Source: Raillietiella orientalis
Taxonomy: Eukaryota
DNA length: 64,000 nucleotides
NCBI GenBank assembly: GCA_036172245.1
Contig: JAYWIR010000044.1
Location: forward strand, 806,001 to 870,000
Direction of reading: 5' to 3'
Positions 31,262-64,000 of this stretch are shown piece by piece. Each line of letters begins with the position of its first letter. The stretch's first letter is position 1. The notes under the pieces are model-generated. The model was not told the origin of the DNA and ran no database searches. It saw only the letters and a list, made by a program, of their open reading frames with translations. Both the position numbers and the translations under genes were made by a program.

Positions 31262-31271
31262 GGTACCGCAC

Positions 31272-31342
31272 TGCATCGGCCGGGAATCGAACCCGGATCG
31301 CCCGCGTGGCAGGCGAGCATTCTACCATTGAACCACCGATGC
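31272..31342 (-). tRNA. tRNA-Gly-GCC: tRNA-Gly (anticodon GCC)
   Basis: GCATCGGTGGTTCAATGGTAGAATGCTCGCCTGCCACGCGGGCGATCCGGGTTCGATTCCCGGCCGATGCA: 71 nt, full cloverleaf, intact A and B boxes, no intron. Confidence 0.97.
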
Positions 31343-32790: not shown

Positions 32791-34907
32791 TCAGCGTCTC
32801 AGCAACTTGGCCGCCACGTCGGAGAAGTGACCTTCGTTGGAGACGTTGAAGACCTCGTAGAGGATGGTCACGATCCTCTCCATCTCCTGCTTGTAGCTGG
32901 AGAAGAAGACCGCCTCCCTCTTCTGGTACTCCTCCCGCCGAGGCTTAGGCAGGTGCATGCGCCTTATGTAGCCCGACACCTTGTCGCGGAAGAACTTGGA
33001 CAGGATCTCCTGCCATCTCTGGAAGCTACGGGGACACGGAGTCAGGAAGTAGGGACGTCGCCGAGTGCCACTACGCCTTGCGGAAGACAGACAGCCCCGC
33101 AGGCGGGGCGCGCACACCCCTTCCCGCACGCGAAAGGTCCGCCGGAAACTCCGCTCCGTCCTCGATCCGCGGACGGCGGGGCGCGAGCGCGTCACCTGTT
33201 CACCGCGTCCTTGTAAGCGTCTGCATCTCCAAGCTCGATGTCCCTCTTTCCCTCCACGAAGATGAAGTGGTAGTCGCTCCTCAGGTCGTGGATCTGCTTA
33301 TCAAACAGGTGACTCAGGTACCCTTCGTCCGCAGGCTCCTCCCCCTCGGTGACCTTGGCTATCAGGTACTGCAGGAGGTCGTTGTACTTGAGGTAGTTCG
33401 CCTCCAACGAATTAATTACCCTTCCCGGGAGTCGCAGAGACCTCCGCTAATGTCCCGAGAATACTCACTTCTGAAGAGCCCTGCTCACGTAGTCGTCCAT
33501 GGAGAAGTGCAGGTCCCAGTCCTCGTTCGGCAGGAAGCGCGTGCTGCCATCCTCTGCAGAAGCAGGAAGTCAGGATCAGTGCTTGAGTCACAAGGTTGGC
33601 ACAGGTTCCTTCCAGCCCCGTTCTGCAGGGCCGGAAGGAGAAGAAGGAAGCGTGGAGGTAAGGCATTCCCGGAAGAGCTGAGAGTGCCTCACCGGCGGAT
33701 GTTCCTCCCTCCTTATGTGGTCATTCCAATCTCGAACGGTGGCACAGGGATTCAATGGAGCGCGTGAGCTCATTCCTTCTCCTGTCGGACCAATAGAATT
33801 CGGGCGCGTGTTATATCATTGTTTCCCTCCCTTGTTAAGGGTAGCTGAAAAGTAAGTTCGGTCTCCGGCGCGAGTACGGCATGGTTGCGAGAGCTCTCGA
33901 TTGTTGCAAGTAGGCATTGTTGCGAGTAAGGCCATCGTTCCGAGAGCTCCCGATTGTTACGACCCGAAATAGGCTTGAGAAATCCCCAAACTTTCGAAAA
34001 CTTGCGGGAACCATCGGAACATCCCTAGGCTCGGCTTTGGGAAAGAGGAAGAGATTCCCGAAAGAGGACGGAGGAAAGCTCACCCCACTCTTCTCGTTCA
34101 CTTCGCCCGCCGCCGGTGCCTCTTTTCTCACCCAACGAAGCTCGCAAACCAAGCTGCGAACACGATCTTTGACGCGATTGGAGGCAGCAGCTTGATGGGA
34201 GTCTCAGCTGCTGGAACGCGCCGCTTGGAACGAACGAAGAGCCCGAACCACGACGATCCGCTTCCCTTGCGAACGTCCGTTTGCCAACGTTCCTGTTCCG
34301 GGACGAAGAATGTTCGTCTCTTGAACAGGCAGTTCCTCAGTTCCGGTCCCCTCCCCTCCTTCCTTCCTTTCTCCTGTCCCCTCCTCCTCGACTTTTTCCC
34401 TCGGGGCATTCGACTTGACAAATTTGGAGGGAAGCACTCCGTGGACGATCTCTCGGGAGTTCCAGGAGTTCTTCGGGTGCTCGTCCGTGCCTTGCCTGAG
34501 GGTAGTTCCAGGCAGACCGTTCGACAGGCGAGACGGACCCTTCCGAGAGACGCCTGGCAACATCCGGCAGTCCTTGTCGGGAGTGAGCCTGCTTGGGTCG
34601 CGCGGAACCTCGGCACACCTTCTGCTCCCCTGTGGTGGTGGAAGGTCGGACGCTCTCGGTCAGCCGCGAAGGAATCCTCCGGGTCGCCTCTCAAGCAGGT
34701 GGAGCCGGGAAGTTTCCTCCCTCCCTCTCCCCTTGTGCGTCCGTCTCCCTGGCAGCCGCTGCCCGTTGCGAAGGGCGTCGCGGAAGGGGGAGAGTGCTGC
34801 TTACCCAAGTTGCCGCCGGCGGCGCGGGCAGAAGCTTCCAGCAGCAGCAGCAGCAGGAGCAGCAGCAGAGGTGGGAGTGTCTGGGAGCTTTTCGGGGCAG
34901 GCGCCAT
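32791..34907 (-). CDS. Uncharacterised 215-aa secreted protein; exons 34907-34805, 33553-33469, 33420-33196, 33025-32791
   Basis: Exon 1 encodes a signal peptide (MAPAPKSSQTLPPLLLLLLLLLLEASARA) and ends G|GTAAGC. Three further exons with GC3-rich codons join in consistent phases (1,2,2). The TGA stop overlaps an AATAAA (32786-32791). Confidence 0.8.
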
Positions 34908-34975
34908 CGCCTCCTTGGGTCGGGCTGGCGCTGTGTTTTCCTGAGTGAACCTCCTTTAGGCGACCGCGGAACTTG

Positions 34976-35011
34976 AACTGACTTTTCCGAGGCGCAGCGC
35001 TCCTTATCGAT
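34976..35011 (-). promoter_or_regulatory. Putative core promoter of the secreted-protein gene (left-arm copy)
   Basis: Arthropod-type initiator TCAGTT (34976-34981) ~70 nt upstream of the ATG, with GATAAG overlapping a DRE-like ATCGATA at about -30. Confidence 0.45.
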
Positions 35012-35568
35012 GCGGGTGGGGTGGGGAGGGAGAGAGAGAAGGGAAAAGAGCGCACGCTTCGGCTCGCTCGCTCCCATGGGAAGGTGCACACGCGCGTGCC
35101 ACCTGCCGAAGAGACGATCGAGGAAGGAGAGGGGAAGTCGCAGAGGGGAGGTGATGGCGCCCTTGTCAGCGGGTACAAAGGGATCCACTCCGATTGTGGC
35201 GGTCTCCCTGGCTCGCACCTTCACCTCTACGGCGAAGAAAGAAACGGCAAACGGGCCGGAGGAGGAGCTCCCGTCCGGCAACGGCAGAAGAAGCCGTTCC
35301 GGCTATTCATCTGGAGCTACCGGCCTCCTCACCATCTCGCCGGAGGCAGATCAGGGACGTGGTCTCCCGAGTCCCGCCGTCTGTTTCCCCGAAGCATTAG
35401 GGGAGTGCGCGCGGGACTCGAAGGAGGCCCCATTCTCCCTAGGACCGGAGGCGCTCAGAGGACGCGGCCCAACGCACGCGAGCCCTCGGGTCGTTTTGGG
35501 GACACCGAGCGGGAGCTGCGGCCGACTTTCCACCGAAAGTATGCCTTCCTGAAAGAGCTCACTCATCC

Positions 35569-35598
35569 GATCCGCTACTGTGGCCACAGTAGCGGATC
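35569..35598. repeat. Perfect 30-bp palindrome GATCCGCTACTGTGGCCACAGTAGCGGATC (mirror copy 62799-62828)
   Basis: 15-bp arms, no spacer, read directly. Confidence 0.95.
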
Positions 35599-36509
35599 TC
35601 AGTCGCCCTCGGCAACCGAGAAAATTCCTTCCTGCGAACCTCCTCCTTCCGTTCCGTTCGCTTTTGCGCGCTTCTTCGCCCTCTCCCAGCATCTTCGGTC
35701 TTCCTGACCTCGCTCGGCGGTGGAGGCCGGGCGACCTTTCCTCTGTCCTCCAGTCGGCAGACGTCCGAAGACCCGAATCCACCGCCAGAGGAGGTGCAGC
35801 ACTTCCGGAGCACCGTGGGCAGCTTTGAAGACCCCGTCGGCATCCCGCGCGATAGCTCGCGGCCGAGCTGCTCTGCTTTCCCTTTCCTGCAGCTGGCGAG
35901 TGGCAGGTGAGGGCGGACCCCACGCTCATCTCTGCACCCGCGAGATGCCATCCTCTCCTGCTCTCGCTCCCACGAGCTCCTCGAAAGTGGAAGGCTGCTG
36001 CAAGCAGGAGGACACTTACCTCCAGCTCCAAGTCGGACTGTAGAGCCCTCCAAGAAACCTGTTGCAGAGCTTGATCTTTCCCTTAGGTTCTGCCGGTCGT
36101 CTTTCACCTCACGACGGGTGAGCGTGGCTCCCCTGCCAGTGGAGAGACGTCACCGTTGCAGATCTCCTCATTGCTACGGGAGCAGTTTTGATCGCAATGG
36201 GAAATGACCTCGGGTGACCGTGCCTGCAGCACCACTCTCTCCAAAGCTTGTGCACGAAGATTGCACGATTGTTTCCAGGATTACCTCCTGAATTTCGAAA
36301 CCTCAGTGGAAAGGGAACAGGCAGGGCGGCAATTCCAGCCCTTCTTTTCCCTTCCGACTCAGACTTCAGGAATACATTAGCATGGAGATCTGCATAGTTC
36401 ACGATTGCCCGGATCTGCTTAGATCTTTGTGTTTGTCCTCACTCTTCATACTCTTCTCTCTCCTTCCCAAGTACTGTCTGTCCATCATGGAGGCTCCTCG
36501 AATTCTTCG

Positions 36510-36533
36510 ATCCATATCGGGCCCGATATGGAT
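36510..36533. repeat. Perfect 24-bp palindrome ATCCATATCGGGCCCGATATGGAT (mirror copy 61864-61887)
   Basis: 12-bp arms, no spacer, read directly. Confidence 0.95.
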
Positions 36534-37114
36534 ACATTTCCTCTTATCCCTTATTTATTTTATGTAGATAAATGTTTATTCTACGTTTGCTGTATCCCGT
36601 ATAGTTAATCTATGTTGAGCATGGTTTTTCATCGTATCATTTTCTACTTTCTACTGTTAATTCTACGTACGTATGGTCCGGTATATCCGAGATGAGCAAG
36701 TTTCGGAGCTCTGAAAGTGATCCGCCAGTTTGAATGCAATCGCCTTTACTTTCTTCACGGCTTCATTCAGCTCCGCATGGCAGCAGCAAAAAAAGAAAAA
36801 GAAGAAAAAAAACCGTATTTGACCTGAGACGTCAGGGTCGTGAGCTCTACGGCCACGGTTCCCCTTTCACGAGCTCCGCGCTCCATGGAATCTTCCTAAA
36901 ATCGGAGTATCTGAGGATCCTCACAAGTACCCTAAGTTTCCTCGCATCTATTCCCACTCTTCCATCGTTAGCGTTTCAATGGAGAGCAGGAATTCTGGAA
37001 CTTTGCCACTTGTTCACCATCTAGAGCTTCTAGAGCTCTCTTTCGAGGTCGTTAATTGGAATGGTCACTCTGGAGCAAAGCCAGAATGAGGAAACAGCAG
37101 TGAGAGAGAGCAGT

Positions 37115-37244
37115 CGTGAAAGCAATAATAAGAGAGGAATCGTGAAAGTAACAATCAAAGAGAAATCGTGAAAGCAACAATAAAAGAGGAATCGTGAAAG
37201 CAACAATAAGAGGGAAATAATGAAAACAACAATGAGAAAGCAAT
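37115..37244. repeat. 26-bp minisatellite, ~5 copies (CGTGAAAGCAACAATAAGAGAGGAAT-like)
   Basis: Units start at 37115, 37141, 37167, 37193 and (degenerate) 37219. Confidence 0.9.
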
Positions 37245-39994
37245 TAGGAAAGCAAAATGAGTAGGCCAGTGATAAAAAAAAAAAAAACAATGGAATGGAA
37301 TGCAGCAACAACATTATGTCAGCAAAGGCTCGCTCCTGATTTTCAGCATATGCTCTTCCGCTGTTCCGCCTTCCAGGCTTGCCAGGCGCCTCGTCCCGTG
37401 AACGCGATGCATTTCCAGTCGGCCCGTCGAGCGGATGTGCGGCCCAGGAAGCTCAGACACTTCGCGCCTGCGCGACCCTTTGATGCCGCCTGCGAGGCTG
37501 CCGTTCGCAGACCGCGACGGTCCCTCGAACAAAATGTCCTACTCAGGTAAGGATGCTGAGATTGCTGTACGAAAACGGAACGGTCGGTCGTCTCCCTCGT
37601 TCCCGCATCCTGCTGCCGTGCGAAAACCCCCTGAACCCGAAAGGCGACGGCGACGTGCGCATGACAGGGGGTTCCACAACCAAAGCAGCAACACCGGATA
37701 TCTGCCTGCGCAGCACTCCTGACTGTCGATAGCTCACATCTCAACTCACGATCCTCCCTGCAGAGTTTGCTTCCCTCCCGGACGATGGAGCAGAGCGGGA
37801 GGCAGAGATCGGGAGCGTGCGAAAAGACGATGCCAAGGGGAAGAAGGGGAGAGGGGAGGAGAGGACGGAGGAATTTCTCAGATGAGAGGCGTGGGGTGGC
37901 ACTCCTTCCTCCCATCATTCCTGCGATTTCCAATGCATTCCAGCCGCTGATCCTTCCGAGAGGAGCTCGGCGAGAACCGATTTGTCTTCCCCGTTCCCTC
38001 AGTTCGGCGTGCCCGGGGTTGAGTTTTTCCCCTTCTCCTCGTCTGATTTTTCTCCTCGCCTGGCGGGACGCTGGAGAGGAGATACCGGAAGAAGCAGCTC
38101 GATCGCAGGAACACTGATAATGGTTCGTCTTCCTCCTCCTCGTCCTCCTCTCTCCCCTCCCTTCCCCCTCCCTCAGCAAAACTCCCCAATAGATATAGGA
38201 AATAATAGGTCGTCAATCTGTCACCTCTTCTCTCTTTATCAACTGGCACCGTTCCATACCGCGCCCCACGCTCCCCGCTAAAAAAAACACACACACACAA
38301 AAAAAAAGTCTCTCAATGAGGTCAGCACGAAGTCAATCGGATCTTCCAAGAGGGGGAAAGGAATGGATATTCAAATCAAGCTTGCGCGTCTCGCTTCCGG
38401 TCAACCTGCTCGAGGTGCTCCCCAGGAAGGATTCCTCTTCCGGATCGCTTCGCGCGGAGACGCCACTGGAGGAGTCCTCGGGGCAACCGGAACCGGAAGC
38501 GATACGGAGCTTCGAAAGCCACCCGGCCCGGGCACGCCGCACCTGCCAGCCCAGAACGAGTCGCCGCGTTCCCTACTGGCAGCCGGCGCTGAGGTCCTTT
38601 CCGGTGGACCCGCGACCTCGGCGTCGCCGGCAGCCCTCGGCATGCCGAGCTGCTGCAGCCCCTGCGCCTTCCTCGCTCACGGACCTTCGGAGGCAGCAGC
38701 CAAGATGAAAGAACGTGTGGGGGGCATCATCCACTGGAGCCTTTCGCGCTCCGCCGCCGAACTCGTGCGGAGTGAAACTGGAAGCTGGAAGAAGAAAGAG
38801 CCTCAGGGAACTCTCGTGATATGACCAGCGGATGCTAAAAGCGAGGACGGAGATCGACCAGGTCGCTTAGCCGGCTGCGGGTCTCGTCCGTGGGCCGAGG
38901 GGAAGCTGCAGAGGAAGGTGGTCACCTGGAGCGACGACACGCTTGAGGGGACGGAAGACTTTGCTTTGCGCTGCTTTGAGCTAGTGGTCACGAATCACTC
39001 TCCGATGCGCATCTGCTCTGGTCATGCGCATCCCCAACCTCCTTAGATCCGTTTCCTCCTTCTCCCTGCGCTTTGCCCTTCGAAGGTTCACGTTCGCTTC
39101 CCTTTCCTGGGCTTCGCGGTCCCTCTCGAAGTGGACCTCTCGCCTCAGGGTCTCGCCTTCCCACAGGAAGCTAGCGTCTCCCTGGAAACACATCCTTCTC
39201 GGGGAAGCGCGATGGACGTTCCTCGCGTCCCTTGCCCACCGCCAGTCGGGAGGGACATCAAAGGCAAAGGTCGCTCGGAAAAGCGCCTGCAGCATTCCAA
39301 GGAGGAGCCGCCGTTGGGCTGGACAGGCAGCGTCCCGCTCGCCGTGCCCTCTTGGCGGGAGCCCCTTCGAACGCTCAGGTACCACCGAGGTGCTGCGGTG
39401 GCCTCCGGTCGGTGCCGGGGGACACCCCAGCACCGACCGTAGACGCCGTTGCCGTGAGGAGACCCGAGGTCGCCGGGGCGCACGCGACGTGCCGTGGCAC
39501 TCGCGCCGCGCGTCGAAGGCTCTTGGCGGAACGCACCGAAGATCTTCCTGAACCGGGGTCGCCAGCGCGCCCCGGAGGATCGCCTGCCGCTCTTGCTGTC
39601 TGCCTGATGGCTCCTTCCCAGAGCCATCCTCCGCCCGAGACCGCGCCGGTGTCCCTTCGTCCCAGGAGACGGCCTGACCTGCGAACGGAGTCGCTCCTGG
39701 AGCAGCGGATGTTCCTCCCTAGTGAGCCCTTCGTCCCTCTTGGTCTTCTGCCCGGGTCCTGTAGCTACGGTTGCTGTTTCAGCTGATTCTCCTGTTTTGC
39801 CTCACATCCCTTGCTGTTTCGGCGAGGGGGTCCTGGGTGGCCGCTCTCGTCGTTGCTATCCTGATCACCCTTCCCGAAGATCCGCTTCGCCCCTCCCCAA
39901 CGACAACGCTTTCCCGGTTGCGGATGAGGGCAAGGGGATCTCTCGAGCTGCGCGCCTTCAAGCGAGCGCTCTTGCGCTGGGCATGGCTGCACGT

Positions 39995-40860
39995 GAGAAG
40001 AGAAGAGAAGAGAAGAGAAGAGAAGAGAAGAGAAGAGAAGAGAAGAGAAGAGAAGAGAAGAGAAGAGAAGAGAAGAGAAGAGAAGAGAAGAGAAGAGAAG
40101 AGAAGAGAAGAGAAGAGAAGAGAAGAGAAGAGAAGAGAAGAGAAGAGAAGAGAAGAGAAGAGAAGAGAAGAGAAGAGAAGAGAAGAGAAGAGAAGAGAAG
40201 AGAAGAGAAGAGAAGAGAAGAGAAGAGAAGAGAAGAGAAGAGAAGGAAGAGAAGAGAAGAGAAGAGAAGAGAAGAGAAGAGAAGAGAAGAGAAGAGAAGA
40301 GAAGAGAAGAGAAGAGAAGAGAAGAGAAGAGAAGAGAAGAGAAGAGAAGAGAAGAGAAGAGAAGAGAAGAGAAGAGAAGAGAAGAGAAGAGAAGAGAAGA
40401 GAAGAGAAGAGAAGAGAAGAAGAGAAGAGAAGAGAAGAGAAGAGAAGAGAAGAGAAGAGAAGAGAAGAAGAGAAGAGAAGAGAAGAGAAGAGAAGAGAAG
40501 AGAAGAGAAGAGAAGAGAAGAGAAGAAGAGAGAAGAGAAGAGGAAGAGAAGAGAAGAGAAGAGAAGAGAAGAGAAGAGAAGAGAAGAGAAGAGAAGAGAA
40601 GAGAAGAGAAGAGAAGAGAAGAGAAGAGAAGAGAAGAGAAGAGAAGAGAAGAGAAGAGAAGAGAAGAGAAGAGGAAGAGAAGAGAAGAGAAGAGAAGAGA
40701 AGAGAAGAGAAGAGAAGAGAAGAGAAGAGAAGAGAAGAAGAGAAGAGAAGAGAAGAGAAGAGAAGGGAAGGGAAGGGAAGGGAAGGGAAGGGAAGAGAAG
40801 AGAAGAGAAGAGAAGAGAAGAGAAGAGAAGAGAAGAGAAGGGAAGAGAAGAGAAGAGAAG
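39995..40860. repeat. (AGAAG)n pentanucleotide microsatellite, ~170 units, with a short (GGAAG)n block and a degenerate purine-rich tail to ~41090
   Basis: Direct reading. Confidence 0.99.
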
Positions 40861-42472
40861 GGAGGAGAAGGGAAGAGAAGAGGAGATCAAGAGGAGGAGG
40901 GGTGTAAGGAAGAGGACGAGGAGAAAGAAAGGAAGAGGAAAGAAGGAGGAGCAAAAGAGAAGCAGGAGCAGGAGAAAAGGGGAATGGGGAAGAGGAGGAA
41001 GAAGGTGGAGGAGAGGTGAGAATGAGGGAAGAAGAGGACGAAAAAGGGTGAGGAAGAGGAGGAGAAAGGAAGAGGGAGGGGAGGAGGTGGAAGCGAGTCG
41101 GGCCGCACCGCAGGGGACGGCTCGCGCCGACGGCGGGATCTGGACGCTTGGACCCGTCGCGCGGGAGAATCGCCGACGCCGCCTTGGTCTTCGCACGGTC
41201 CGGTCACCTTCGGACGACGCTGGTCAGGGTCCAATAGCGGCGGTTTCCTCCCTCGCGTGCCTCCCCGACGCCGCTACCCTGGTCGCGATATCCGCGGCCG
41301 GCTTCACTCGCTGGTGCATCCCGGCCTTCCCGACGTCGCTGCCGAGTTACCCTGAATTACGCCGCCGCATTTCCTGAAGAGGGCGCTCGCGCGAGCCCCC
41401 GTCCTCCGAAGGCGCGCTGCGCGTCCTCTTCTTCCCGGCCCTCCGGCCGCCGCGTTCTCCATGCGGAACGTGATTGGCGGAAAAACCCGTGAGGTCAGCA
41501 GCTTGAAAGAACTACCGATGGAGAAACCGTTGGTCTTCTCAAGGAGAAGTATATGGTAACTTGGCATCTTCGCCTTCTTTCTCAGGAACCTCAGCATCTC
41601 TTCTGGTTATTGACGTCGAGAAGTTCAGAGGTCAACGGCATCCCACAGAACGTGTGACCACGACAGCTGGAAATTCCTTGAGCGCGGACAAGCAAAGATA
41701 TATCCACCAACTGCATGGGATGAGGGCGTCGGCACCCTCACCATCTTCACCATCTTCCTGTCCTCCTCCATATCTTCTTGCCATGCTCTTCTTGCAGTAC
41801 CAATCCCATTCACGCTGAGCCTAAGAAACAACCAACAGATACCTCAATCTATGAAGGTGCAATCCGGAAGATCTCCGCAACGAGACTTTATCGTAAGGAA
41901 GACAAGATTTTGGAAGGTCCGCTGCTGGGGCCTCGACAGCCACACGAACCTCCTTCGTCGACGCAGACAGACAGAGGGGGGACTTCGCGACACTCTCCTT
42001 CCTGGAGCGCTACCGAAAGCGTCAAAGATGCAATCGAGCAACCCAGCGGCCTCTGGGATGACCACCCTTGTCCCCTGACTAAGGAACGGGAAGGAGCATG
42101 CTGAAGATGCTGAAGATTTCAAGCAGACGGTTGATGGTTGCACACTTCCATGAAGCGGGCATTTCAGGAAAAATAAAATAAGAGAAGGGAAGACCAGCTG
42201 GAACAGGCACCGGCATACATGATACCAACCACACAGCGCCACCGACGAGTGCAGCAAGCTCGTGCGATCGCCATCACCGGGGGCTGCACCGCAAACATCA
42301 GCAACGAAGCAGAACAGAAGGAGCTTCACCAAGGCGAATCTGAGCGAAGGTCACTACGGGCAAGGTGCGAAGAGTGCGCTTCCTACCGGACTCGACGACC
42401 AAGACGCTGCACTGGAGTCACCCGGCTGCCGACACCCAATGACACAGGACCTCTTCCTTTGCCGACAAACAC

Positions 42473-42640
42473 CCGAAAAAAGGGGAGCAGCCAGGGCCCG
42501 GGCGACCCCGTGCAGGTCGAAGACGAGCACCTCCTCCCGAAGGACCATCGTCTTGTCCCGCTCGATCGTCCTCTTCGACTGCAGGAGCTCCTTCAGGAAC
42601 CAGGAGGCGACTGACTTCCGCAGTTCCTCTTCTTGTTCAT
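42473..42640 (-). CDS. Same exon, left-arm copy
   Basis: Mirror of 55756-55923. Confidence 0.5.
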
Positions 42641-53200: not shown

Positions 53201-54221
53201 GGTTACGGCCAGCGTCAACTTTCCGATTCCGGGCTTGGGCGTGGCGCGCGTCCACTCTTCCGCCATATCCACTGGCTGTCGAATCTTGCACCTCCTGAGG
53301 GGCTTTGGCTTCTCGGAGTTTGGCAAACGTCCAAGGAGACGGCTTTGGCATCAGCGTGCGCGCACTCGCCCGCGCGTCGGCCCACCGAACACCCTCTGAC
53401 GTCAGGTGGCACGAGAGGCGAGCCGGCGTCCTGTGCTACCGACTCCCCTGCCATCATCCGCCCGCTCTCCCGCGTCCTCGCAGACTCCTTCCCGTCGTTA
53501 TGCAACACGGGTTCGAGTGAGGACAGGCTCAAGGACAGAAGAGGAAGGGACGACGGATGGACCATCCACCCATTCCGCCCTTTCGACCGACAGCCGAGGA
53601 CGCCCTCTTCTCGGACCTACTCCTCATTTTTCGCGTCGACCCTTTGTGGAGGGGGACGTTCGGCAAAGCGCGCTACAACGCGTCACGACCGCAGCCACCC
53701 GACCCCCAAGTGCCATTTGTCGCTCTTGCGTGCGCCCTGAGCGCCGCCTCGTCGGCGGTGACCGGCGCTTCTCCGCCGCGCGGTCATGCAGCCCTCCTTG
53801 TCCGAGCCATGGCGTCAGGCAGCCTGCAGGAGGGAGGTAAAAACTCCGGCGGCCGACCGAGAGTCCAGCGACACATCTGCTCCTCTCTCCCTTCCCTCCC
53901 CCGCCAACCCGGAAGCGCTCTGTCTCCGACCGTGGTCCCGCCGACGGGCGGCCGGAAGGCGCCACGGTAGCGCCTGCCGGTCTGCAGGGCCTGCGCTGTG
54001 CCTTACGAAGAGCCGGCTGGTGACGCTCAGGCACCGGATGGTGGCTTCGCGCATGCGGTACCCGAGCGACATCTATGCAGCCGACGTCACACGGGAAGGC
54101 GGCAACCAGCCGGAGAACCCCAGAGGTCTGCTCTTTCCTTACGGAGGACAGGAAGCGGAGGAAGCGCTGTGCACCACGTTTGTGGCCCCACTCTTCCATC
54201 CCCTGCTTTCCCACCGAAAAG

Positions 54222-54686
54222 TATAAGCAAGAGGACGAAGGACCTCCTGAAAATCGCTCTGTGGATCCGCCTGAAGGAATTGCGTCGTAGCGGAGTTCTC
54301 GGCCTCCTGACGCTGCACCGCCTGAGGCAACAGCTCCAGTGGACGGCGCTCGCCCTAGAGGCGAAGTCGTGGAGCACGAACTGGTGCGAGTCCGCGCGAC
54401 ACCTGGTCAAGCGAGCCACCGGCTACGCGGGACTGTCTTCGTTCCTGGCGCAGCGGCGCAGACGAAACGTGTCCAGCTGCGCAGTGCGGCTCCGGCGAAT
54501 GGCCAGGCTGAACAGGACCAACAACTGGATCTTCTTGCAGCTCGCCAACGGTAGCGCCTGGTTGCAGGAAACAGTCTGCACGTGGGCCAAGGACAACGGA
54601 GCGCGCCCGGAAATGCGGCGGCGACTGCCGCGCTCCCCCTACAACACCCGCTCGCTGCAGGACGTCATCGTGCAGCCCCACCACGT
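54222..54686 (+). CDS. Large exon of an unrecognised multi-exon gene (right-arm copy): ISKRTKDLLKIALWIRLKELRR...LNRTNNWIFLQLANGSAWLQETVCTW...DVIVQPHH
   Basis: Stop-free for ~155 codons with strongly C/G-ending codons. An upstream pyrimidine tract ends in AG and there is a GTACGT donor candidate. Boundaries are approximate. Confidence 0.6.
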
Positions 54687-55755
54687 GTACGTGGGCGCAA
54701 CGAGCCTCCCGAGCCGCAGCAGTGCCGTACCTCAGGGAGCAGTAACTGGGCAGTAACCAGCCGGCCGAATGGCAGGGCAGTTGCGAGGCACGTCTTCGGA
54801 CGAAGGAATGAGGTGGTTGTTCGACCACGGGGAGGCTCACGGAAACCGCAACCCCAAGTGGTCTACCGAAAGGATTGTAGCGGTGAGGTGAGCTGCTGGG
54901 AATCCCACAGGACGATCCGTCCAGTTGCCCCTCAGTGCTGAAGAACAACGGGATCCTCCCCGTGAAGTGGAAGGAGTCGGCCCTTCTGCTGCTGCACTGG
55001 GGTCACTCGTCCAACGCCTGCCGCTCTCGCTAGATCCGGGGGCTGTGGACCCGAACTGCGGCGGGCGTGGGAAACGGGGAATCCCAGCTTTCGCATCTGC
55101 TCGTAGACTGCGTTGCGCTCCGGACCCTGCGCTTGCGTTACGCAACGGCCCTTGGTGCACCGACGGGCAATCGCAGGTGACGCGTCTTCGTGCGCGATGC
55201 CCTTTCGCCTGGCGCATGCCCAGCAGCTCTTTGCTTCTGCCTACGCGGGATCGCGGCGGCCTGGAGCTACGCGAGGGGAGGACGGCACGATGAGGATGTC
55301 ACCTGCCCTTGGCCCTGCGCTTCCTGCGGACGGCAGCAAGATGGTGGCCCCAGCTGAGGCATACTCGGGTGGAAACTTTCCGTCATCCTGGAAAGGATGC
55401 AGAAGACGTCCTCTGAAACCCGGTGATATCTTTCCTGACCGTCCCTGACCTTTTTTTGCACACATTTTTTGATTTGATTTTGGTTTTTGTTCGCCCCTTC
55501 CCCCTCCGCCGGGCGGCGAGGCGAACCTCGCCGGCCTGGAGCAGCACTTCCCGTTTACTCGGCAGGTTCCGAGCATTTTCGGACGATGTAGGGCAGATGG
55601 TCCCCCTACACATGTATGTATGCTTATTATTTTCATAAGAAACGTCGCGCCGCGAGCGGGTGATGAACCAGCTGGAAAAACTTAGCGGTCGCTCTTTCCG
55701 TACGGAGGTCAGGAAGCGGAAGAAGCAGAGTGATGTGGGGCGACGGGCGTCCCAG

Positions 55756-55923
55756 ATGAACAAGAAGAGGAACTGCGGAAGTCAGTCGCCTCCTGGTTCC
55801 TGAAGGAGCTCCTGCAGTCGAAGAGGACGATCGAGCGGGACAAGACGATGGTCCTTCGGGAGGAGGTGCTCGTCTTCGACCTGCACGGGGTCGCCCGGGC
55901 CCTGGCTGCTCCCCTTTTTTCGG
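55756..55923 (+). CDS. Probable exon of the same unrecognised gene (EQEEELRKSVASWFLKELLQSKRTIERDKTMVLREEVLVFDLHGVARALAAPLF)
   Basis: cccag acceptor, GC3-rich codons, phase-compatible with a short upstream exon 55640-55687. Donor uncertain. Confidence 0.5.
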
Positions 55924-57535
55924 GTGTTTGTCGGCAAAGGAAGAGGTCCTGTGTCATTGGGTGTCGGCAGCCGGGTGACTCCAGTGCAGCGTCTTGGTCG
56001 TCGAGTCCGGTAGGAAGCGCACTCTTCGCACCTTGCCCGTAGTGACCTTCGCTCAGATTCGCCTTGGTGAAGCTCCTTCTGTTCTGCTTCGTTGCTGATG
56101 TTTGCGGTGCAGCCCCCGGTGATGGCGATCGCACGAGCTTGCTGCACTCGTCGGTGGCGCTGTGTGGTTGGTATCATGTATGCCGGTGCCTGTTCCAGCT
56201 GGTCTTCCCTTCTCTTATTTTATTTTTCCTGAAATGCCCGCTTCATGGAAGTGTGCAACCATCAACCGTCTGCTTGAAATCTTCAGCATCTTCAGCATGC
56301 TCCTTCCCGTTCCTTAGTCAGGGGACAAGGGTGGTCATCCCAGAGGCCGCTGGGTTGCTCGATTGCATCTTTGACGCTTTCGGTAGCGCTCCAGGAAGGA
56401 GAGTGTCGCGAAGTCCCCCCTCTGTCTGTCTGCGTCGACGAAGGAGGTTCGTGTGGCTGTCGAGGCCCCAGCAGCGGACCTTCCAAAATCTTGTCTTCCT
56501 TACGATAAAGTCTCGTTGCGGAGATCTTCCGGATTGCACCTTCATAGATTGAGGTATCTGTTGGTTGTTTCTTAGGCTCAGCGTGAATGGGATTGGTACT
56601 GCAAGAAGAGCATGGCAAGAAGATATGGAGGAGGACAGGAAGATGGTGAAGATGGTGAGGGTGCCGACGCCCTCATCCCATGCAGTTGGTGGATATATCT
56701 TTGCTTGTCCGCGCTCAAGGAATTTCCAGCTGTCGTGGTCACACGTTCTGTGGGATGCCGTTGACCTCTGAACTTCTCGACGTCAATAACCAGAAGAGAT
56801 GCTGAGGTTCCTGAGAAAGAAGGCGAAGATGCCAAGTTACCATATACTTCTCCTTGAGAAGACCAACGGTTTCTCCATCGGTAGTTCTTTCAAGCTGCTG
56901 ACCTCACGGGTTTTTCCGCCAATCACGTTCCGCATGGAGAACGCGGCGGCCGGAGGGCCGGGAAGAAGAGGACGCGCAGCGCGCCTTCGGAGGACGGGGG
57001 CTCGCGCGAGCGCCCTCTTCAGGAAATGCGGCGGCGTAATTCAGGGTAACTCGGCAGCGACGTCGGGAAGGCCGGGATGCACCAGCGAGTGAAGCCGGCC
57101 GCGGATATCGCGACCAGGGTAGCGGCGTCGGGGAGGCACGCGAGGGAGGAAACCGCCGCTATTGGACCCTGACCAGCGTCGTCCGAAGGTGACCGGACCG
57201 TGCGAAGACCAAGGCGGCGTCGGCGATTCTCCCGCGCGACGGGTCCAAGCGTCCAGATCCCGCCGTCGGCGCGAGCCGTCCCCTGCGGTGCGGCCCGACT
57301 CGCTTCCACCTCCTCCCCTCCCTCTTCCTTTCTCCTCCTCTTCCTCACCCTTTTTCGTCCTCTTCTTCCCTCATTCTCACCTCTCCTCCACCTTCTTCCT
57401 CCTCTTCCCCATTCCCCTTTTCTCCTGCTCCTGCTTCTCTTTTGCTCCTCCTTCTTTCCTCTTCCTTTCTTTCTCCTCGTCCTCTTCCTTACACCCCTCC
57501 TCCTCTTGATCTCCTCTTCTCTTCCCTTCTCCTCC

Positions 57536-58400
57536 CTTCTCTTCTCTTCTCTTCCCTTCTCTTCTCTTCTCTTCTCTTCTCTTCTCTTCTCTTCTCTTCT
57601 CTTCCCTTCCCTTCCCTTCCCTTCCCTTCCCTTCTCTTCTCTTCTCTTCTCTTCTCTTCTTCTCTTCTCTTCTCTTCTCTTCTCTTCTCTTCTCTTCTCT
57701 TCTCTTCTCTTCTCTTCTCTTCTCTTCTCTTCTCTTCTCTTCTCTTCTCTTCTCTTCTCTTCTCTTCTCTTCTCTTCTCTTCTCTTCTCTTCTCTTCTCT
57801 TCTCTTCTCTTCTCTTCTCTTCTCTTCTCTTCTCTTCTCTTCTCTTCTCTTCCTCTTCTCTTCTCTCTTCTTCTCTTCTCTTCTCTTCTCTTCTCTTCTC
57901 TTCTCTTCTCTTCTCTTCTCTTCTCTTCTTCTCTTCTCTTCTCTTCTCTTCTCTTCTCTTCTCTTCTCTTCTCTTCTTCTCTTCTCTTCTCTTCTCTTCT
58001 CTTCTCTTCTCTTCTCTTCTCTTCTCTTCTCTTCTCTTCTCTTCTCTTCTCTTCTCTTCTCTTCTCTTCTCTTCTCTTCTCTTCTCTTCTCTTCTCTTCT
58101 CTTCTCTTCTCTTCTCTTCTCTTCTCTTCTCTTCTCTTCTCTTCTCTTCCTTCTCTTCTCTTCTCTTCTCTTCTCTTCTCTTCTCTTCTCTTCTCTTCTC
58201 TTCTCTTCTCTTCTCTTCTCTTCTCTTCTCTTCTCTTCTCTTCTCTTCTCTTCTCTTCTCTTCTCTTCTCTTCTCTTCTCTTCTCTTCTCTTCTCTTCTC
58301 TTCTCTTCTCTTCTCTTCTCTTCTCTTCTCTTCTCTTCTCTTCTCTTCTCTTCTCTTCTCTTCTCTTCTCTTCTCTTCTCTTCTCTTCTCTTCTCTTCTC
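57536..58400. repeat. (CTTCT)n microsatellite, mirror copy in the right arm
   Basis: Direct reading; nearly the same interruption pattern as the left copy. Confidence 0.99.
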
Positions 58401-59213
58401 ACGTGCAGCCATGCCCAGCGCAAGAGCGCTCGCTTGAAGGCGCGCAGCTCGAGAGATCCCCTTGCCCTCATCCGCAACCGGGAAAGCGTTGTCGTTGGGG
58501 AGGGGCGAAGCGGATCTTCGGGAAGGGTGATCAGGATAGCAACGACGAGAGCGGCCACCCAGGACCCCCTCGCCGAAACAGCAAGGGATGTGAGGCAAAA
58601 CAGGAGAATCAGCTGAAACAGCAACCGTAGCTACAGGACCCGGGCAGAAGACCAAGAGGGACGAAGGGCTCACTAGGGAGGAACATCCGCTGCTCCAGGA
58701 GCGACTCCGTTCGCAGGTCAGGCCGTCTCCTGGGACGAAGGGACACCGGCGCGGTCTCGGGCGGAGGATGGCTCTGGGAAGGAGCCATCAGGCAGACAGC
58801 AAGAGCGGCAGGCGATCCTCCGGTGCGCGCTGGCGACCCCGGTTCAGGAAGATCTTCGGTGCGTTCCGCCAAGAGCCTTCGACGCGCGGCGCGAGTGCCA
58901 CGGCACGTCGCGTGCGCCCCGGCGACCTCGGGTCTCCTCACGGCAACGGCGTCTACGGTCGGTGCTGGGGTGTCCCCCGGCACCGACCGGAGGCCACCGC
59001 AGCACCTCGGTGGTACCTGAGCGTTCGAAGGGGCTCCCGCCAAGAGGGCACGGCGAGCGGGACGCTGCCTGTCCAGCCCAACGGCGGCTCCTCCTTGGAA
59101 TGCTGCAGGCGCTTTTCCGAGCGACCTTTGCCTTTGATGTCCCTCCCGACTGGCGGTGGGCAAGGGACGCGAGGAACGTCCATCGCGCTTCCCCGAGAAG
59201 GATGTGTTTCCAG

Positions 59214-59356
59214 GGAGACGCTAGCTTCCTGTGGGAAGGCGAGACCCTGAGGCGAGAGGTCCACTTCGAGAGGGACCGCGAAGCCCAGGAAAGGGAAGCG
59301 AACGTGAACCTTCGAAGGGCAAAGCGCAGGGAGAAGGAGGAAACGGATCTAAGGAG
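59214..59356 (+). CDS. Possible charged/coiled-coil exon (GDASFLWEGETLRREVHFERDREAQEREANVNLRRAKRREKEETDLR); mirror at 39039-39181 (-)
   Basis: tttccag acceptor and AG|GTTGGG donor; phase-compatible with downstream candidates at 59415-59469 and 59561-59667. No homology recognised. Confidence 0.3.
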
Positions 59357-61152
59357 GTTGGGGATGCGCATGACCAGAGCAGATGCGCATCGGAGAGTGA
59401 TTCGTGACCACTAGCTCAAAGCAGCGCAAAGCAAAGTCTTCCGTCCCCTCAAGCGTGTCGTCGCTCCAGGTGACCACCTTCCTCTGCAGCTTCCCCTCGG
59501 CCCACGGACGAGACCCGCAGCCGGCTAAGCGACCTGGTCGATCTCCGTCCTCGCTTTTAGCATCCGCTGGTCATATCACGAGAGTTCCCTGAGGCTCTTT
59601 CTTCTTCCAGCTTCCAGTTTCACTCCGCACGAGTTCGGCGGCGGAGCGCGAAAGGCTCCAGTGGATGATGCCCCCCACACGTTCTTTCATCTTGGCTGCT
59701 GCCTCCGAAGGTCCGTGAGCGAGGAAGGCGCAGGGGCTGCAGCAGCTCGGCATGCCGAGGGCTGCCGGCGACGCCGAGGTCGCGGGTCCACCGGAAAGGA
59801 CCTCAGCGCCGGCTGCCAGTAGGGAACGCGGCGACTCGTTCTGGGCTGGCAGGTGCGGCGTGCCCGGGCCGGGTGGCTTTCGAAGCTCCGTATCGCTTCC
59901 GGTTCCGGTTGCCCCGAGGACTCCTCCAGTGGCGTCTCCGCGCGAAGCGATCCGGAAGAGGAATCCTTCCTGGGGAGCACCTCGAGCAGGTTGACCGGAA
60001 GCGAGACGCGCAAGCTTGATTTGAATATCCATTCCTTTCCCCCTCTTGGAAGATCCGATTGACTTCGTGCTGACCTCATTGAGAGACTTTTTTTTTGTGT
60101 GTGTGTGTTTTTTTTAGCGGGGAGCGTGGGGCGCGGTATGGAACGGTGCCAGTTGATAAAGAGAGAAGAGGTGACAGATTGACGACCTATTATTTCCTAT
60201 ATCTATTGGGGAGTTTTGCTGAGGGAGGGGGAAGGGAGGGGAGAGAGGAGGACGAGGAGGAGGAAGACGAACCATTATCAGTGTTCCTGCGATCGAGCTG
60301 CTTCTTCCGGTATCTCCTCTCCAGCGTCCCGCCAGGCGAGGAGAAAAATCAGACGAGGAGAAGGGGAAAAACTCAACCCCGGGCACGCCGAACTGAGGGA
60401 ACGGGGAAGACAAATCGGTTCTCGCCGAGCTCCTCTCGGAAGGATCAGCGGCTGGAATGCATTGGAAATCGCAGGAATGATGGGAGGAAGGAGTGCCACC
60501 CCACGCCTCTCATCTGAGAAATTCCTCCGTCCTCTCCTCCCCTCTCCCCTTCTTCCCCTTGGCATCGTCTTTTCGCACGCTCCCGATCTCTGCCTCCCGC
60601 TCTGCTCCATCGTCCGGGAGGGAAGCAAACTCTGCAGGGAGGATCGTGAGTTGAGATGTGAGCTATCGACAGTCAGGAGTGCTGCGCAGGCAGATATCCG
60701 GTGTTGCTGCTTTGGTTGTGGAACCCCCTGTCATGCGCACGTCGCCGTCGCCTTTCGGGTTCAGGGGGTTTTCGCACGGCAGCAGGATGCGGGAACGAGG
60801 GAGACGACCGACCGTTCCGTTTTCGTACAGCAATCTCAGCATCCTTACCTGAGTAGGACATTTTGTTCGAGGGACCGTCGCGGTCTGCGAAAGGCAGCCT
60901 CGCAGGCGGCATCAAAGGGTCGCGCAGGCGCGAAGTGTCTGAGCTTCCTGGGCCGCACATCCGCTCGACGGGCCGACTGGAAATGCATCGCGTTCACGGG
61001 ACGAGGCGCCTGGCAAGCCTGGAAGGCGGAACAGCGGAAGAGCATATGCTGAAAATCAGGAGCGAGCCTTTGCTGACATAATGTTGTTGCTGCATTCCAT
61101 TCCATTGTTTTTTTTTTTTTTTTATCACTGGCCTACTCATTTTGCTTTCCTA

Positions 61153-61282
61153 ATTGCTTTCTCATTGTTGTTTTCATTATTTCCCTCTTATTGTTGCTTT
61201 CACGATTCCTCTTTTATTGTTGCTTTCACGATTTCTCTTTGATTGTTACTTTCACGATTCCTCTCTTATTATTGCTTTCACG
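61153..61282. repeat. 26-bp minisatellite, mirror copy in the right arm
   Basis: Reverse complement of 37115-37244. Confidence 0.9.
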
Positions 61283-63385
61283 ACTGCTCTCTCTCACTGC
61301 TGTTTCCTCATTCTGGCTTTGCTCCAGAGTGACCATTCCAATTAACGACCTCGAAAGAGAGCTCTAGAAGCTCTAGATGGTGAACAAGTGGCAAAGTTCC
61401 AGAATTCCTGCTCTCCATTGAAACGCTAACGATGGAAGAGTGGGAATAGATGCGAGGAAACTTAGGGTACTTGTGAGGATCCTCAGATACTCCGATTTTA
61501 GGAAGATTCCATGGAGCGCGGAGCTCGTGAAAGGGGAACCGTGGCCGTAGAGCTCACGACCCTGACGTCTCAGGTCAAATACGGTTTTTTTTCTTCTTTT
61601 TCTTTTTTTGCTGCTGCCATGCGGAGCTGAATGAAGCCGTGAAGAAAGTAAAGGCGATTGCATTCAAACTGGCGGATCACTTTCAGAGCTCCGAAACTTG
61701 CTCATCTCGGATATACCGGACCATACGTACGTAGAATTAACAGTAGAAAGTAGAAAATGATACGATGAAAAACCATGCTCAACATAGATTAACTATACGG
61801 GATACAGCAAACGTAGAATAAACATTTATCTACATAAAATAAATAAGGGATAAGAGGAAATGTATCCATATCGGGCCCGATATGGATCGAAGAATTCGAG
61901 GAGCCTCCATGATGGACAGACAGTACTTGGGAAGGAGAGAGAAGAGTATGAAGAGTGAGGACAAACACAAAGATCTAAGCAGATCCGGGCAATCGTGAAC
62001 TATGCAGATCTCCATGCTAATGTATTCCTGAAGTCTGAGTCGGAAGGGAAAAGAAGGGCTGGAATTGCCGCCCTGCCTGTTCCCTTTCCACTGAGGTTTC
62101 GAAATTCAGGAGGTAATCCTGGAAACAATCGTGCAATCTTCGTGCACAAGCTTTGGAGAGAGTGGTGCTGCAGGCACGGTCACCCGAGGTCATTTCCCAT
62201 TGCGATCAAAACTGCTCCCGTAGCAATGAGGAGATCTGCAACGGTGACGTCTCTCCACTGGCAGGGGAGCCACGCTCACCCGTCGTGAGGTGAAAGACGA
62301 CCGGCAGAACCTAAGGGAAAGATCAAGCTCTGCAACAGGTTTCTTGGAGGGCTCTACAGTCCGACTTGGAGCTGGAGGTAAGTGTCCTCCTGCTTGCAGC
62401 AGCCTTCCACTTTCGAGGAGCTCGTGGGAGCGAGAGCAGGAGAGGATGGCATCTCGCGGGTGCAGAGATGAGCGTGGGGTCCGCCCTCACCTGCCACTCG
62501 CCAGCTGCAGGAAAGGGAAAGCAGAGCAGCTCGGCCGCGAGCTATCGCGCGGGATGCCGACGGGGTCTTCAAAGCTGCCCACGGTGCTCCGGAAGTGCTG
62601 CACCTCCTCTGGCGGTGGATTCGGGTCTTCGGACGTCTGCCGACTGGAGGACAGAGGAAAGGTCGCCCGGCCTCCACCGCCGAGCGAGGTCAGGAAGACC
62701 GAAGATGCTGGGAGAGGGCGAAGAAGCGCGCAAAAGCGAACGGAACGGAAGGAGGAGGTTCGCAGGAAGGAATTTTCTCGGTTGCCGAGGGCGACTGAGA
62801 TCCGCTACTGTGGCCACAGTAGCGGATCGGATGAGTGAGCTCTTTCAGGAAGGCATACTTTCGGTGGAAAGTCGGCCGCAGCTCCCGCTCGGTGTCCCCA
62901 AAACGACCCGAGGGCTCGCGTGCGTTGGGCCGCGTCCTCTGAGCGCCTCCGGTCCTAGGGAGAATGGGGCCTCCTTCGAGTCCCGCGCGCACTCCCCTAA
63001 TGCTTCGGGGAAACAGACGGCGGGACTCGGGAGACCACGTCCCTGATCTGCCTCCGGCGAGATGGTGAGGAGGCCGGTAGCTCCAGATGAATAGCCGGAA
63101 CGGCTTCTTCTGCCGTTGCCGGACGGGAGCTCCTCCTCCGGCCCGTTTGCCGTTTCTTTCTTCGCCGTAGAGGTGAAGGTGCGAGCCAGGGAGACCGCCA
63201 CAATCGGAGTGGATCCCTTTGTACCCGCTGACAAGGGCGCCATCACCTCCCCTCTGCGACTTCCCCTCTCCTTCCTCGATCGTCTCTTCGGCAGGTGGCA
63301 CGCGCGTGTGCACCTTCCCATGGGAGCGAGCGAGCCGAAGCGTGCGCTCTTTTCCCTTCTCTCTCTCCCTCCTCACCCCACCCGC

Positions 63386-63421
63386 ATCGATAAGGAGCGC
63401 TGCGCCTCGGAAAAGTCAGTT
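63386..63421 (+). promoter_or_regulatory. Putative core promoter (right-arm copy): ATCGATAAG at about -30, initiator TCAGTT
   Basis: Mirror of 34976-35011. Confidence 0.45.
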
Positions 63422-63489
63422 CAAGTTCCGCGGTCGCCTAAAGGAGGTTCACTCAGGAAAACACAGCGCCAGCCCGACCCAAGGAGGCG

Positions 63490-63592
63490 ATGGCGCCTGC
63501 CCCGAAAAGCTCCCAGACACTCCCACCTCTGCTGCTGCTCCTGCTGCTGCTGCTGCTGGAAGCTTCTGCCCGCGCCGCCGGCGGCAACTTGG
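63490..63592 (+). CDS. Exon 1 (signal peptide) of the second copy of the secreted-protein gene; remaining exons would lie beyond the window
   Basis: Exact mirror of 34805-34907; ATG at 63490, donor G|GTAAGC. Confidence 0.75.
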
Positions 63593-64000
63593 GTAAGCAG
63601 CACTCTCCCCCTTCCGCGACGCCCTTCGCAACGGGCAGCGGCTGCCAGGGAGACGGACGCACAAGGGGAGAGGGAGGGAGGAAACTTCCCGGCTCCACCT
63701 GCTTGAGAGGCGACCCGGAGGATTCCTTCGCGGCTGACCGAGAGCGTCCGACCTTCCACCACCACAGGGGAGCAGAAGGTGTGCCGAGGTTCCGCGCGAC
63801 CCAAGCAGGCTCACTCCCGACAAGGACTGCCGGATGTTGCCAGGCGTCTCTCGGAAGGGTCCGTCTCGCCTGTCGAACGGTCTGCCTGGAACTACCCTCA
63901 GGCAAGGCACGGACGAGCACCCGAAGAACTCCTGGAACTCCCGAGAGATCGTCCACGGAGTGCTTCCCTCCAAATTTGTCAAGTCGAATGCCCCGAGGGA

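What the first reader, a model, noticed from the sequence alone, without database searches (positions are those of the whole stretch)
34397..64000. Giant gene-bearing palindrome: >=13.8-kb arms, ~99.9% identical, 2.07-kb spacer
Seen: 34397-48165 is the reverse complement of 50231-64000. I could find only ~9 substitutions (35024, 37503, 39571, 43609, 43684-43685, 43707, 45976, 46731), an A14/T16 homopolymer difference and a 1-nt microsatellite difference. The arms carry at least two genes. Established: near-identical gene-bearing palindromes kept homogeneous by arm-to-arm gene conversion are known from mammalian X/Y and avian W chromosomes, and fold-back inverted duplications initiate gene amplification. 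Inference: this is an invertebrate ampliconic palindrome (possibly sex-linked or in a low-recombination region), a very recent fold-back amplification, or a WGA/assembly chimera.
Basis: partly seen in the sequence, partly recalled or inferred. Interest (0 to 1): 0.85.

Follow-up and report, generated by a model that had tools for sequence, protein, structure and literature searches.

The report
Large near-perfect inverted DNA duplication
Two mirror-image copies of at least 13.8 kb of mostly non-coding DNA face each other across a 2-kb unique spacer; this is a known kind of structure, I found no cellular gene in it, and without sequencing reads an assembly error cannot be excluded.

Summary
The sequence observation is exact. 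Bases 34397-48165 are the reverse complement of 50231-64000, with 9 substitutions at the listed positions, an A14/T16 difference and one 1-nt difference in a (GAGAA)n array. The spacer is 2,065 bp. The right arm is cut by the window end, so the outer ends are unknown.

"Gene-bearing" is not supported. None of 206 arm or spacer ORFs of 50 aa or more has a Pfam domain. The long ORFs lack this genome's codon-position GC signature. The only coding-like stretches are one clear and one weak LINE retrotransposon relic.

Two features lean towards a real palindrome kept alike by GC-biased gene conversion:
- a 47-nt decayed inverted match just inside the spacer (30 of 47);
- the sharpest GC step in the window, about 70% to 50%, exactly at the arm/spacer boundary.

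A young fold-back duplication or an assembly or amplification artefact remains possible. No sequencing run was listed and no genome is held.

Earlier notes of this scan report many similar near-identical palindromes elsewhere in this genome. I did not check them.

Verdict: a new member of a known kind, of modest interest.

The parts
34397..48165 (+). Left arm (13,769 nt). The outer end is set by the window, not by the repeat.
   Evidence: reverse complement of 50231-64000 with 9 substitutions and 2 small indels.
48166..50230 (.). Single-copy spacer, 2,065 nt, GC 52%. No gene found; the ORF 48188-48904(+) has a flat GC1/2/3 profile and no homologues.
50231..64000 (-). Right arm (13,770 nt), cut off by the end of the window.
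48166..48212 (.). Left half of a decayed inverted zone just inside the spacer. It matches 50184-50230 in register at 30 of 47 positions.
   Evidence: 2 of 1,000,000 random 47-mer pairs and 0 of 100,000 shuffles reach 30.
50184..50230 (.). Right half of the decayed inverted zone.
44166..48165 (.). GC-rich inner 4 kb of the left arm (61-74% GC in 250-nt windows). It mirrors 50231-54230 and ends at the arm/spacer boundary.
   Evidence: change point at 48168-48176, support interval 48107-48200.
43640..44210 (-). Relic of a 5'-truncated LINE ORF2 C-terminus, including its stop codon. The mirror copy lies at about 54186-54756(+).
   Evidence: P0001, E 6.8e-33, 56% identity; P0001 carries RVT_1; tblastn 43718-44185, residues 451-615. 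The 5' limit near 44210 is my reading of the ORF against P0001.
42385..42612 (-). Weak second LINE-like fragment (P0001 residues 37-110). The mirror copy lies at 55784-56011(+).
   Evidence: 33% identity, E 0.002. Tentative.
43609..43707 (.). Cluster of 4 of the 9 arm-to-arm substitutions, at the 3' end of the LINE relic. The mirror lies at 54689-54787.
   Evidence: C/Y and G/S changes, one synonymous change, one after the stop.
39995..40886 (+). (GAGAA)n array of about 179 units, the same in both arms but for 1 nt. The mirror lies at 57510-58400.
37105..37287 (+). 26-nt tandem repeat (37105-37255) followed by the A14 run (37274-37287). The mirror has the tandem repeat at 61142-61292 and a T16 run.

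Best explanation
This is a genuine palindromic segmental duplication of mostly non-coding DNA. It holds LINE relics, a long microsatellite and a GC-rich inner domain. It most likely arose by a fold-back or template-switch event whose loop became the 2,065-bp spacer. Its arms have since been kept, or very recently re-made, nearly identical by arm-to-arm gene conversion. That conversion favours G and C and stops at the arm/spacer boundary. Shown here: the structure, its content, the decayed inner edge and the GC step. Inferred: that it exists in the organism, that conversion occurs, and that conversion is GC-biased. No cellular function is indicated. Possible consequences, from general knowledge of inverted repeats, are flipping of the spacer, hairpin RNA if the region is transcribed through, and a risk of rearrangement.
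For: (1) The arms are collinear over 13.8 kb with 0.065% substitutions. An ~890-nt microsatellite differs by only 1 nt between the arms, and 7 of 8 homopolymers of 7 nt or more are equal. (2) Just inside the spacer the inverted match continues in register at 30 of 47 positions and then stops. Only 2 of 1,000,000 random pairs and 0 of 100,000 shuffles reach that. This fits an eroded arm edge, or the short inverted homology seen at fold-back junctions (PMC3907307, passages). (3) GC falls from about 69-72% to 50% at the boundary. The maximum-likelihood change point is 48168-48176. The 1-kb step of 0.198 and the 2-kb step of 0.190 exceed every step in the 34-kb flank, whose maxima are 0.174 and 0.162. 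Primate X palindrome arms are likewise GC-enriched, and their arm/spacer borders shift over time (PMC8981503, passages). (4) Four of the 9 substitutions cluster within 99 bp inside a multi-copy LINE relic, as a conversion patch from another LINE copy would. (5) Unchecked notes on the same genome describe mosaic, converting and GC-enriched inverted repeats elsewhere.
Against: No reads, no whole genome and no related species could be used, so neither the existence of the junctions nor conversion was tested. GC enrichment holds only for the inner 4-5 kb; the outer arm (36-38 kb at 48-53%, 41-43 kb at 56-59%) is no richer than the flank. At the 500-nt scale the GC step is not unique: 0.84% of flank positions reach it. 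A fold-back landing might favour the first GC-rich patch, which would weaken the coincidence argument. As a free local alignment the 47-nt zone is not significant (score 14 against a shuffle maximum of 16); only its in-register position is. All nine differences are between a strong and a weak base but cannot be polarised.
Confidence: 0.45

Rival explanations
1. Assembly or amplification artefact. The organism has one copy (arm-spacer-other flank). A chimeric fold-back molecule (MDA-type inverted chimera) or a graph error joined the far end of the spacer to the reverse strand of the arm. The second haplotype, or mis-polished reads, supplied the few differences.
For: MDA inverted chimeras join nearby segments in opposite orientation. 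The distance is usually under 10 kb, and short complementary overlaps lie at the join (PMC9984789, passages); 2,065 bp fits. The two indels sit in the most error-prone contexts, the longest homopolymer and a microsatellite. The substitution cluster lies in a multi-copy LINE, where polishing errors are expected. The right arm reaches the window end, so a contig end there is not excluded. Artificial palindromes from mis-assembly are a known caveat in invertebrate genomes (PMC7953838, passages). Many near-identical palindromes are noted in this genome, which could also mean a systematic artefact.
Against: A one-off chimeric junction is normally outvoted by true reads inside a contig. Nine substitutions, five of them outside the LINE relic, are not typical consensus errors when 7 of 8 homopolymers agree. 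The breakpoint coincides with the window's sharpest GC step and with a 47-nt decayed inverted zone, which a random chimera does not predict. The reported chimeric-distance peak is 250-300 nt, not 2 kb. Other notes on this genome describe deeply diverged islands inside converting palindromes (unchecked), which artefacts cannot produce.
Confidence: 0.3
2. A very young, real fold-back or template-switch inverted duplication with no gene conversion since. The arms differ only by mutations since the event.
For: The spacer length lies within the 766-70,466 bp range (median 3,428 bp) of human fold-back inverted duplications, which also carry short inverted homology at the spacer boundary (PMC3907307, passages). 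The arms are fully collinear, with no insertion private to one arm.
Against: At a mutation rate of a few 1e-9 per site per generation (recalled, not from a call), 0.065% divergence implies about 1e5 generations. Over that time a 179-unit microsatellite would be expected to change length, yet it differs by 1 nt. The model does not explain why the breakpoint sits on the GC step, nor why 4 of 9 substitutions fall within 99 bp.
Confidence: 0.2
3. Transposon-centred structure. The spacer is a mobile element with about 47-nt imperfect terminal inverted repeats that inserted at, or created by aberrant transposition, the centre of the palindrome.
For: The spacer is bounded by an imperfect inverted repeat, differs in composition from the arms, and holds a 239-aa ORF.
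Against: There is no target-site duplication: the arm ends next to the spacer are reverse complements, not direct repeats. The ORF has flat codon-position GC and no homologues. No Pfam domain occurs in the spacer. No look-alike stretch was found in other windows of the scan. 64% identity is low for functional terminal repeats.
Confidence: 0.05

Closest known systems
Large conversion-maintained palindromes of primate X and Y chromosomes (Rozen et al. 2003, recalled and seen only as a citation; Jackson et al. 2021, PMC8981503, passages read)
   Same: Inverted arms over 10 kb with more than 99.9% identity around a unique spacer. GC is higher in the arm than in adjoining single-copy DNA. There are signs that the arm/spacer border has moved.
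   Different: No protein-coding gene family was found in the arms, only LINE relics. The chromosome is unknown. Concerted evolution was not shown. GC enrichment is limited to the inner 4-5 kb.
Fold-back inverted duplications with a single-copy spacer (Hermetz et al. 2014, PMC3907307, passages read)
   Same: The layout is duplication, kb-scale single-copy spacer, inverted duplication. The spacer is 2,065 bp against a median of 3,428 bp. Short inverted homology lies at the spacer boundary.
   Different: Those cases are megabase-scale, de novo and pathogenic, with a terminal deletion. Here the outer junction is not visible, and the imperfect homology is longer (47 nt at 64%) than most of theirs: 2-8 bp at 13 junctions, with about 300 bp of repeat homology at 3.
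Inverted chimeras of multiple displacement amplification (review PMC9984789, passages read)
   Same: Two nearby segments are joined in opposite orientation, under 10 kb apart.
   Different: Typical distance is 250-300 nt and typical overlap 5-8 nt. Each chimera is unique to one molecule. Arms copied from one molecule should not differ by 9 substitutions.
Palindromes reported from invertebrate assemblies (Adineta vaga, Folsomia candida; Jaron et al. 2021, PMC7953838, passages read)
   Same: Palindromic blocks found in an invertebrate assembly, with the stated caveat that mis-assembly can create them.
   Different: Those were defined by gene collinearity. This one is defined by near-identical nucleotide sequence and has no recognised cellular gene.

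Membership tests
Conversion-maintained large palindrome | Inverted arms of many kb with more than 99% identity | tested here: met
   at least 13,769 nt, 9 substitutions, 2 small indels.
Conversion-maintained large palindrome | Unique spacer between the arms | tested here: met
   2,065 nt with no inverted or other repeat beyond the 47-nt edge zone.
Conversion-maintained large palindrome | Concerted evolution: arms more alike within a species than between species | not testable with these tools
   No relative was found and no genome is held.
Conversion-maintained large palindrome | Arms richer in GC than adjoining single-copy DNA | tested here: inconclusive
   There is a sharp step at the inner boundary, but the outer arm is not enriched, and the left 'flank' may itself belong to the arm.
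Conversion-maintained large palindrome | Arms carry protein-coding (ampliconic) genes | tested here: not met
   0 of 206 ORFs of 50 aa or more have a Pfam family. Codon-position GC is flat. The only coding-like stretches are LINE relics.
Conversion-maintained large palindrome | Location on a sex chromosome or in a low-recombination region | not testable with these tools
   No chromosome assignment and no reads.
Fold-back inverted duplication | Single-copy spacer of about 0.8-70 kb between direct and inverted copy | tested here: met
   2,065 nt, compared with PMC3907307.
Fold-back inverted duplication | Short inverted homology at the spacer/duplication boundary | tested here: met
   30 of 47 in register. 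Any perfect microhomology would be hidden inside the arm.
Fold-back inverted duplication | Outer junction (deletion, telomere or second template switch) | not testable with these tools
   The right arm leaves the window at 64000.
WGA chimera / assembly artefact | Junction not supported by native reads; arm depth equal to single-copy depth | not testable with these tools
   No run was listed, so read laying could not be used.
WGA chimera / assembly artefact | Arms identical apart from sequencing errors | tested here: inconclusive
   The 2 indels look error-like. The 9 substitutions, 4 of them clustered in a LINE relic, do not clearly look so.

The most novel reading that the evidence does not exclude
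Together with the many near-identical and mosaic inverted repeats noted elsewhere in this genome, this locus would show that an invertebrate genome runs frequent, strongly GC-biased conversion between inverted repeats even where they hold no genes. Such palindromes would then be long-lived without selection, would erode only at their edges, and would drive local GC above 70%.
Probability: 0.3. Interest if true: 0.55.

Novelty: new member of a known kind. Interest (0 to 1): 0.3.

Why it matters
If the palindrome is real, it would show that near-perfect palindromes can persist without any gene to protect. That bears on the debate whether such structures are kept by selection or simply by the mechanics of conversion. 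It also offers a clean place to measure GC-biased conversion in an invertebrate. If it is an artefact, it flags a class of inverted false duplications. Since many similar structures are noted in this assembly, these would inflate gene counts and mislead studies of duplication.

Tried and rejected
- Reads: the look-up of sequencing runs with 46500-52000 listed none ('none was listed'; no RNA holder listed), so read laying could not be used.
- Own genome: not held.
- Independent copy of the junction: an exact 40-nt scan of metagenome contigs across 50230/50231 found 0.
- Earlier notes by sequence or relatives: 0 windows for 44000-46000, for the spacer, and for the relatives look-up, which covered 32897-44896.
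- Whole-arm six-frame translation for Pfam: not accepted because of stop codons. I scanned ORFs one by one instead.
- Homologue searches that found nothing: spacer ORF 48188-48904(+), flank ORF 20744-21742(+), flank exon 33195-33440(-).
- Atlas look-up of the LINE-relic ORF: no usable hit.
- Rfam and tRNA scans: nothing in the arms or spacer.
- P0002 (E 1e-4, four short repetitive stretches): I treat it as a low-complexity match.
- Amino-acid-composition scoring: it flagged no arm segment as clearly coding-like.
- Whole-ORF GC3-GC2 filter: too coarse. The sliding version found the LINE relic.
- MAFFT misaligned the microsatellite. I replaced it with ungapped registers.
- Transposon-with-TIR idea: no target-site duplication.
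- timed out and was re-run.
Full report
**1. The observation**

The repeat finder reports three abutting inverted segments: 34397-37287/61110-64000, 37274-40673/57722-61121 and 40674-48212/50184-57722. blastn joins them into one alignment of 13,793 columns at 99.87%.

I compared the arms base by base in the three ungapped registers. This gave exactly nine substitutions, at 35024, 37503, 39571, 43609, 43684, 43685, 43707, 45976 and 46731. There are also two indels:
- A14 at 37274-37287 against T16 at 61108-61123;
- one extra G near 40673 inside the (GAGAA)n array.

High identity ends at 48165/50231. The arms are therefore 13,769 and 13,770 nt, and the spacer 48166-50230 is 2,065 nt.

The left arm begins at 34397 only because its partner leaves the window at 64000. 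The outer ends are unknown, and the 34 kb to the left may or may not belong to the arm. A self-blast of the window finds no other repeat except a 62-nt motif.

**2. What the arms contain**

I gave Pfam 108 of the 114 stop-to-stop ORFs of 90 aa or more that overlap 34000-50300. The six left out overlap the (GAGAA)n array (the lengths of three of them are owed entirely to it). None of the 108 had a family at E <= 0.01. None of the 98 ORFs of 50-89 aa did either; the script left out those lying within the array.

The long ORFs translate to Arg/Ser/Pro/Gly/Ala-rich strings.

Coding-like flank segments (two carry Pfam ankyrin repeats) show a strong codon-position signature, with GC3 0.80-0.93 and GC2 0.23-0.40. 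The twelve longest arm and spacer ORFs are flat, for example 0.72/0.72/0.73. The spacer ORF 48188-48904(+) is also flat and has no homologue.

A sliding GC3-GC2 scan picked out one convincing stretch, 43676-44179(-).
- It matches a 619-aa protein (P0001, E 6.8e-33, 56% identity, residues 455-615) among 1.84 billion representatives.
- P0001 carries a reverse-transcriptase domain (RVT_1, E 4.7e-24).
- tblastn places P0001 residues 451-615 at 43718-44185(-), with the mirror at 54211-54678(+). It places residues 37-110 weakly (E 0.002) at 42385-42612(-).

So the only coding-like material in the arms is a 5'-truncated LINE ORF2 tail and possibly a second LINE fragment. This fits the LINE-rich genome described in earlier notes (unchecked).

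Rfam and ARAGORN find nothing in the arms or spacer. 'Gene-bearing' is therefore not supported within the visible arms.

**3. Features that bear on origin**

(a) Immediately inside the spacer the inverted match continues in register for 47 nt at 30 of 47 positions, and then stops.
- Two of 1,000,000 random 47-mer pairs from the unique part of the window reach 30.
- None of 100,000 composition-preserving shuffles does.
- As a free local alignment it would not stand out: score 14 against a shuffle maximum of 16. Its significance lies in its position.

(b) GC drops at the same place.
- The inner 4 kb of the arm has 61-74% GC in 250-nt windows, and the spacer 41-58%.
- A likelihood change-point scan of 46166-50165 peaks at 48168-48176, with support interval 48107-48200.
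- The step is 0.198 at 1 kb and 0.190 at 2 kb. Both are larger than any step in the 34-kb flank, whose maxima are 0.174 and 0.162.
- At 500 nt, 0.84% of flank positions reach the observed step.

(c) Four of the nine substitutions lie within 99 bp (43609-43707), at the 3' end of the LINE relic. Two change residues (C/Y, G/S), one is synonymous and one lies after the stop.

(d) The 179-unit microsatellite differs between the arms by 1 nt only, and 7 of 8 homopolymers of 7 nt or more are equal, including G11 and A9.

(e) All nine differences are between a strong and a weak base. Without an outgroup they cannot be polarised.

**4. Reading**

A random breakpoint, whether of a young duplication or of a chimeric molecule, has no reason to fall on the sharpest compositional step of the window, nor next to a decayed inverted match. 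Both are expected if the arms have exchanged sequence for a long time by GC-biased conversion that cannot reach past the edge of homology.

Primate X palindromes offer a parallel. Their arms are GC-enriched relative to single-copy DNA, and part of a spacer in one species can be arm in another (PMC8981503, passages).

The 47-nt zone could equally be the short inverted homology that primed a fold-back. Human fold-back duplications show this, with spacers of 766-70,466 bp and a median of 3,428 bp (PMC3907307, passages). The two ideas are compatible: origin by fold-back, upkeep by conversion.

The substitution cluster in a multi-copy LINE fits a conversion patch from another LINE copy. It also fits mis-polishing.

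Several points weaken the conversion reading:
- Only the inner 4-5 kb is GC-rich.
- A fold-back 3' end may simply prefer the first GC-rich patch.
- Nothing here shows conversion directly.

**5. The artefact rival**

MDA-type inverted chimeras join nearby segments in opposite orientation. The distance is usually under 10 kb, with a peak at 250-300 nt, and the overlaps are 5-8 nt (PMC9984789, passages). Mis-assembly is a stated source of false palindromes in invertebrate genomes (PMC7953838, passages).

I could not test this rival. No sequencing run was listed, no genome is held, and an exact scan for the right junction in metagenome contigs found nothing. Whether the contig ends near 64000 is unknown.

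I therefore keep the artefact at about 0.3, a young unconverted duplication at 0.2, a transposon-centred origin at 0.05, and the converted palindrome at 0.45.

**6. Context from the scan**

Earlier notes on other pieces of the same genome describe many near-identical palindromes with spacers of 1.7-22 kb. They also describe 'mosaic' inverted gene pairs with diverged islands, and GC-enriched inverted repeats.

These are unchecked AI notes. They gave me the idea of the GC test, which I then ran here independently. They raise my prior that inverted repeats in this genome are real and converting. They could equally point to a systematic artefact.

**7. Comparison and verdict**

The structure works like a sex-chromosome-type palindrome or a fold-back duplication. 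It fails one defining feature of the ampliconic palindromes, because it has no gene family in the arms. Concerted evolution, chromosome location and the outer junction could not be tested.

It is a new member of a known kind. Interest is modest.

Noticed in passing
window 31271-31343 (-): A tRNA-Gly (GCC) gene, 66.6 bits in Rfam, lies 3 kb outside the visible left arm.
   Followed up: yes
window 18732-24340 (+): A multi-exon gene with ankyrin repeats (Pfam Ank at 18732-19813 and 20059-20217). A P-loop-like stretch lies at 20529-20666, and coding-like exons run to about 24.3 kb. The exon 20744-21742 had no homologue.
   Followed up: partly
window 32794-33560 (-): Three coding-like exons of a small gene with a strong GC3 signature but no Pfam family and no homologue. 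Its 5' end points towards the arm, so upstream exons or the promoter could lie inside it.
   Followed up: partly
whole window: Coding-like flank segments (two with Pfam ankyrin repeats) have GC3 0.80-0.93 and GC2 0.23-0.40, while non-coding ORFs are flat. A sliding GC3-GC2 scan works as a simple exon finder in this genome, although non-coding DNA is itself about 60% GC. CpG observed/expected is about 0.9-1.0 (0.95 flank, 0.97 arm, 0.88 spacer).
   Followed up: yes
window 42670-42730 and 44231-44292 (mirrors 55666-55726 and 54104-54165): A 62-nt direct repeat (84% identity) brackets the stretch that holds the LINE ORF2 relic. It might be LINE-derived or a scar of nested insertion.
   Followed up: no
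window 39995-40886: A very long (GAGAA)n array of about 179 units at 96% purity gives strong purine/pyrimidine strand asymmetry (GC skew 0.40, AT skew 0.60 in 40-42 kb).
   Followed up: partly
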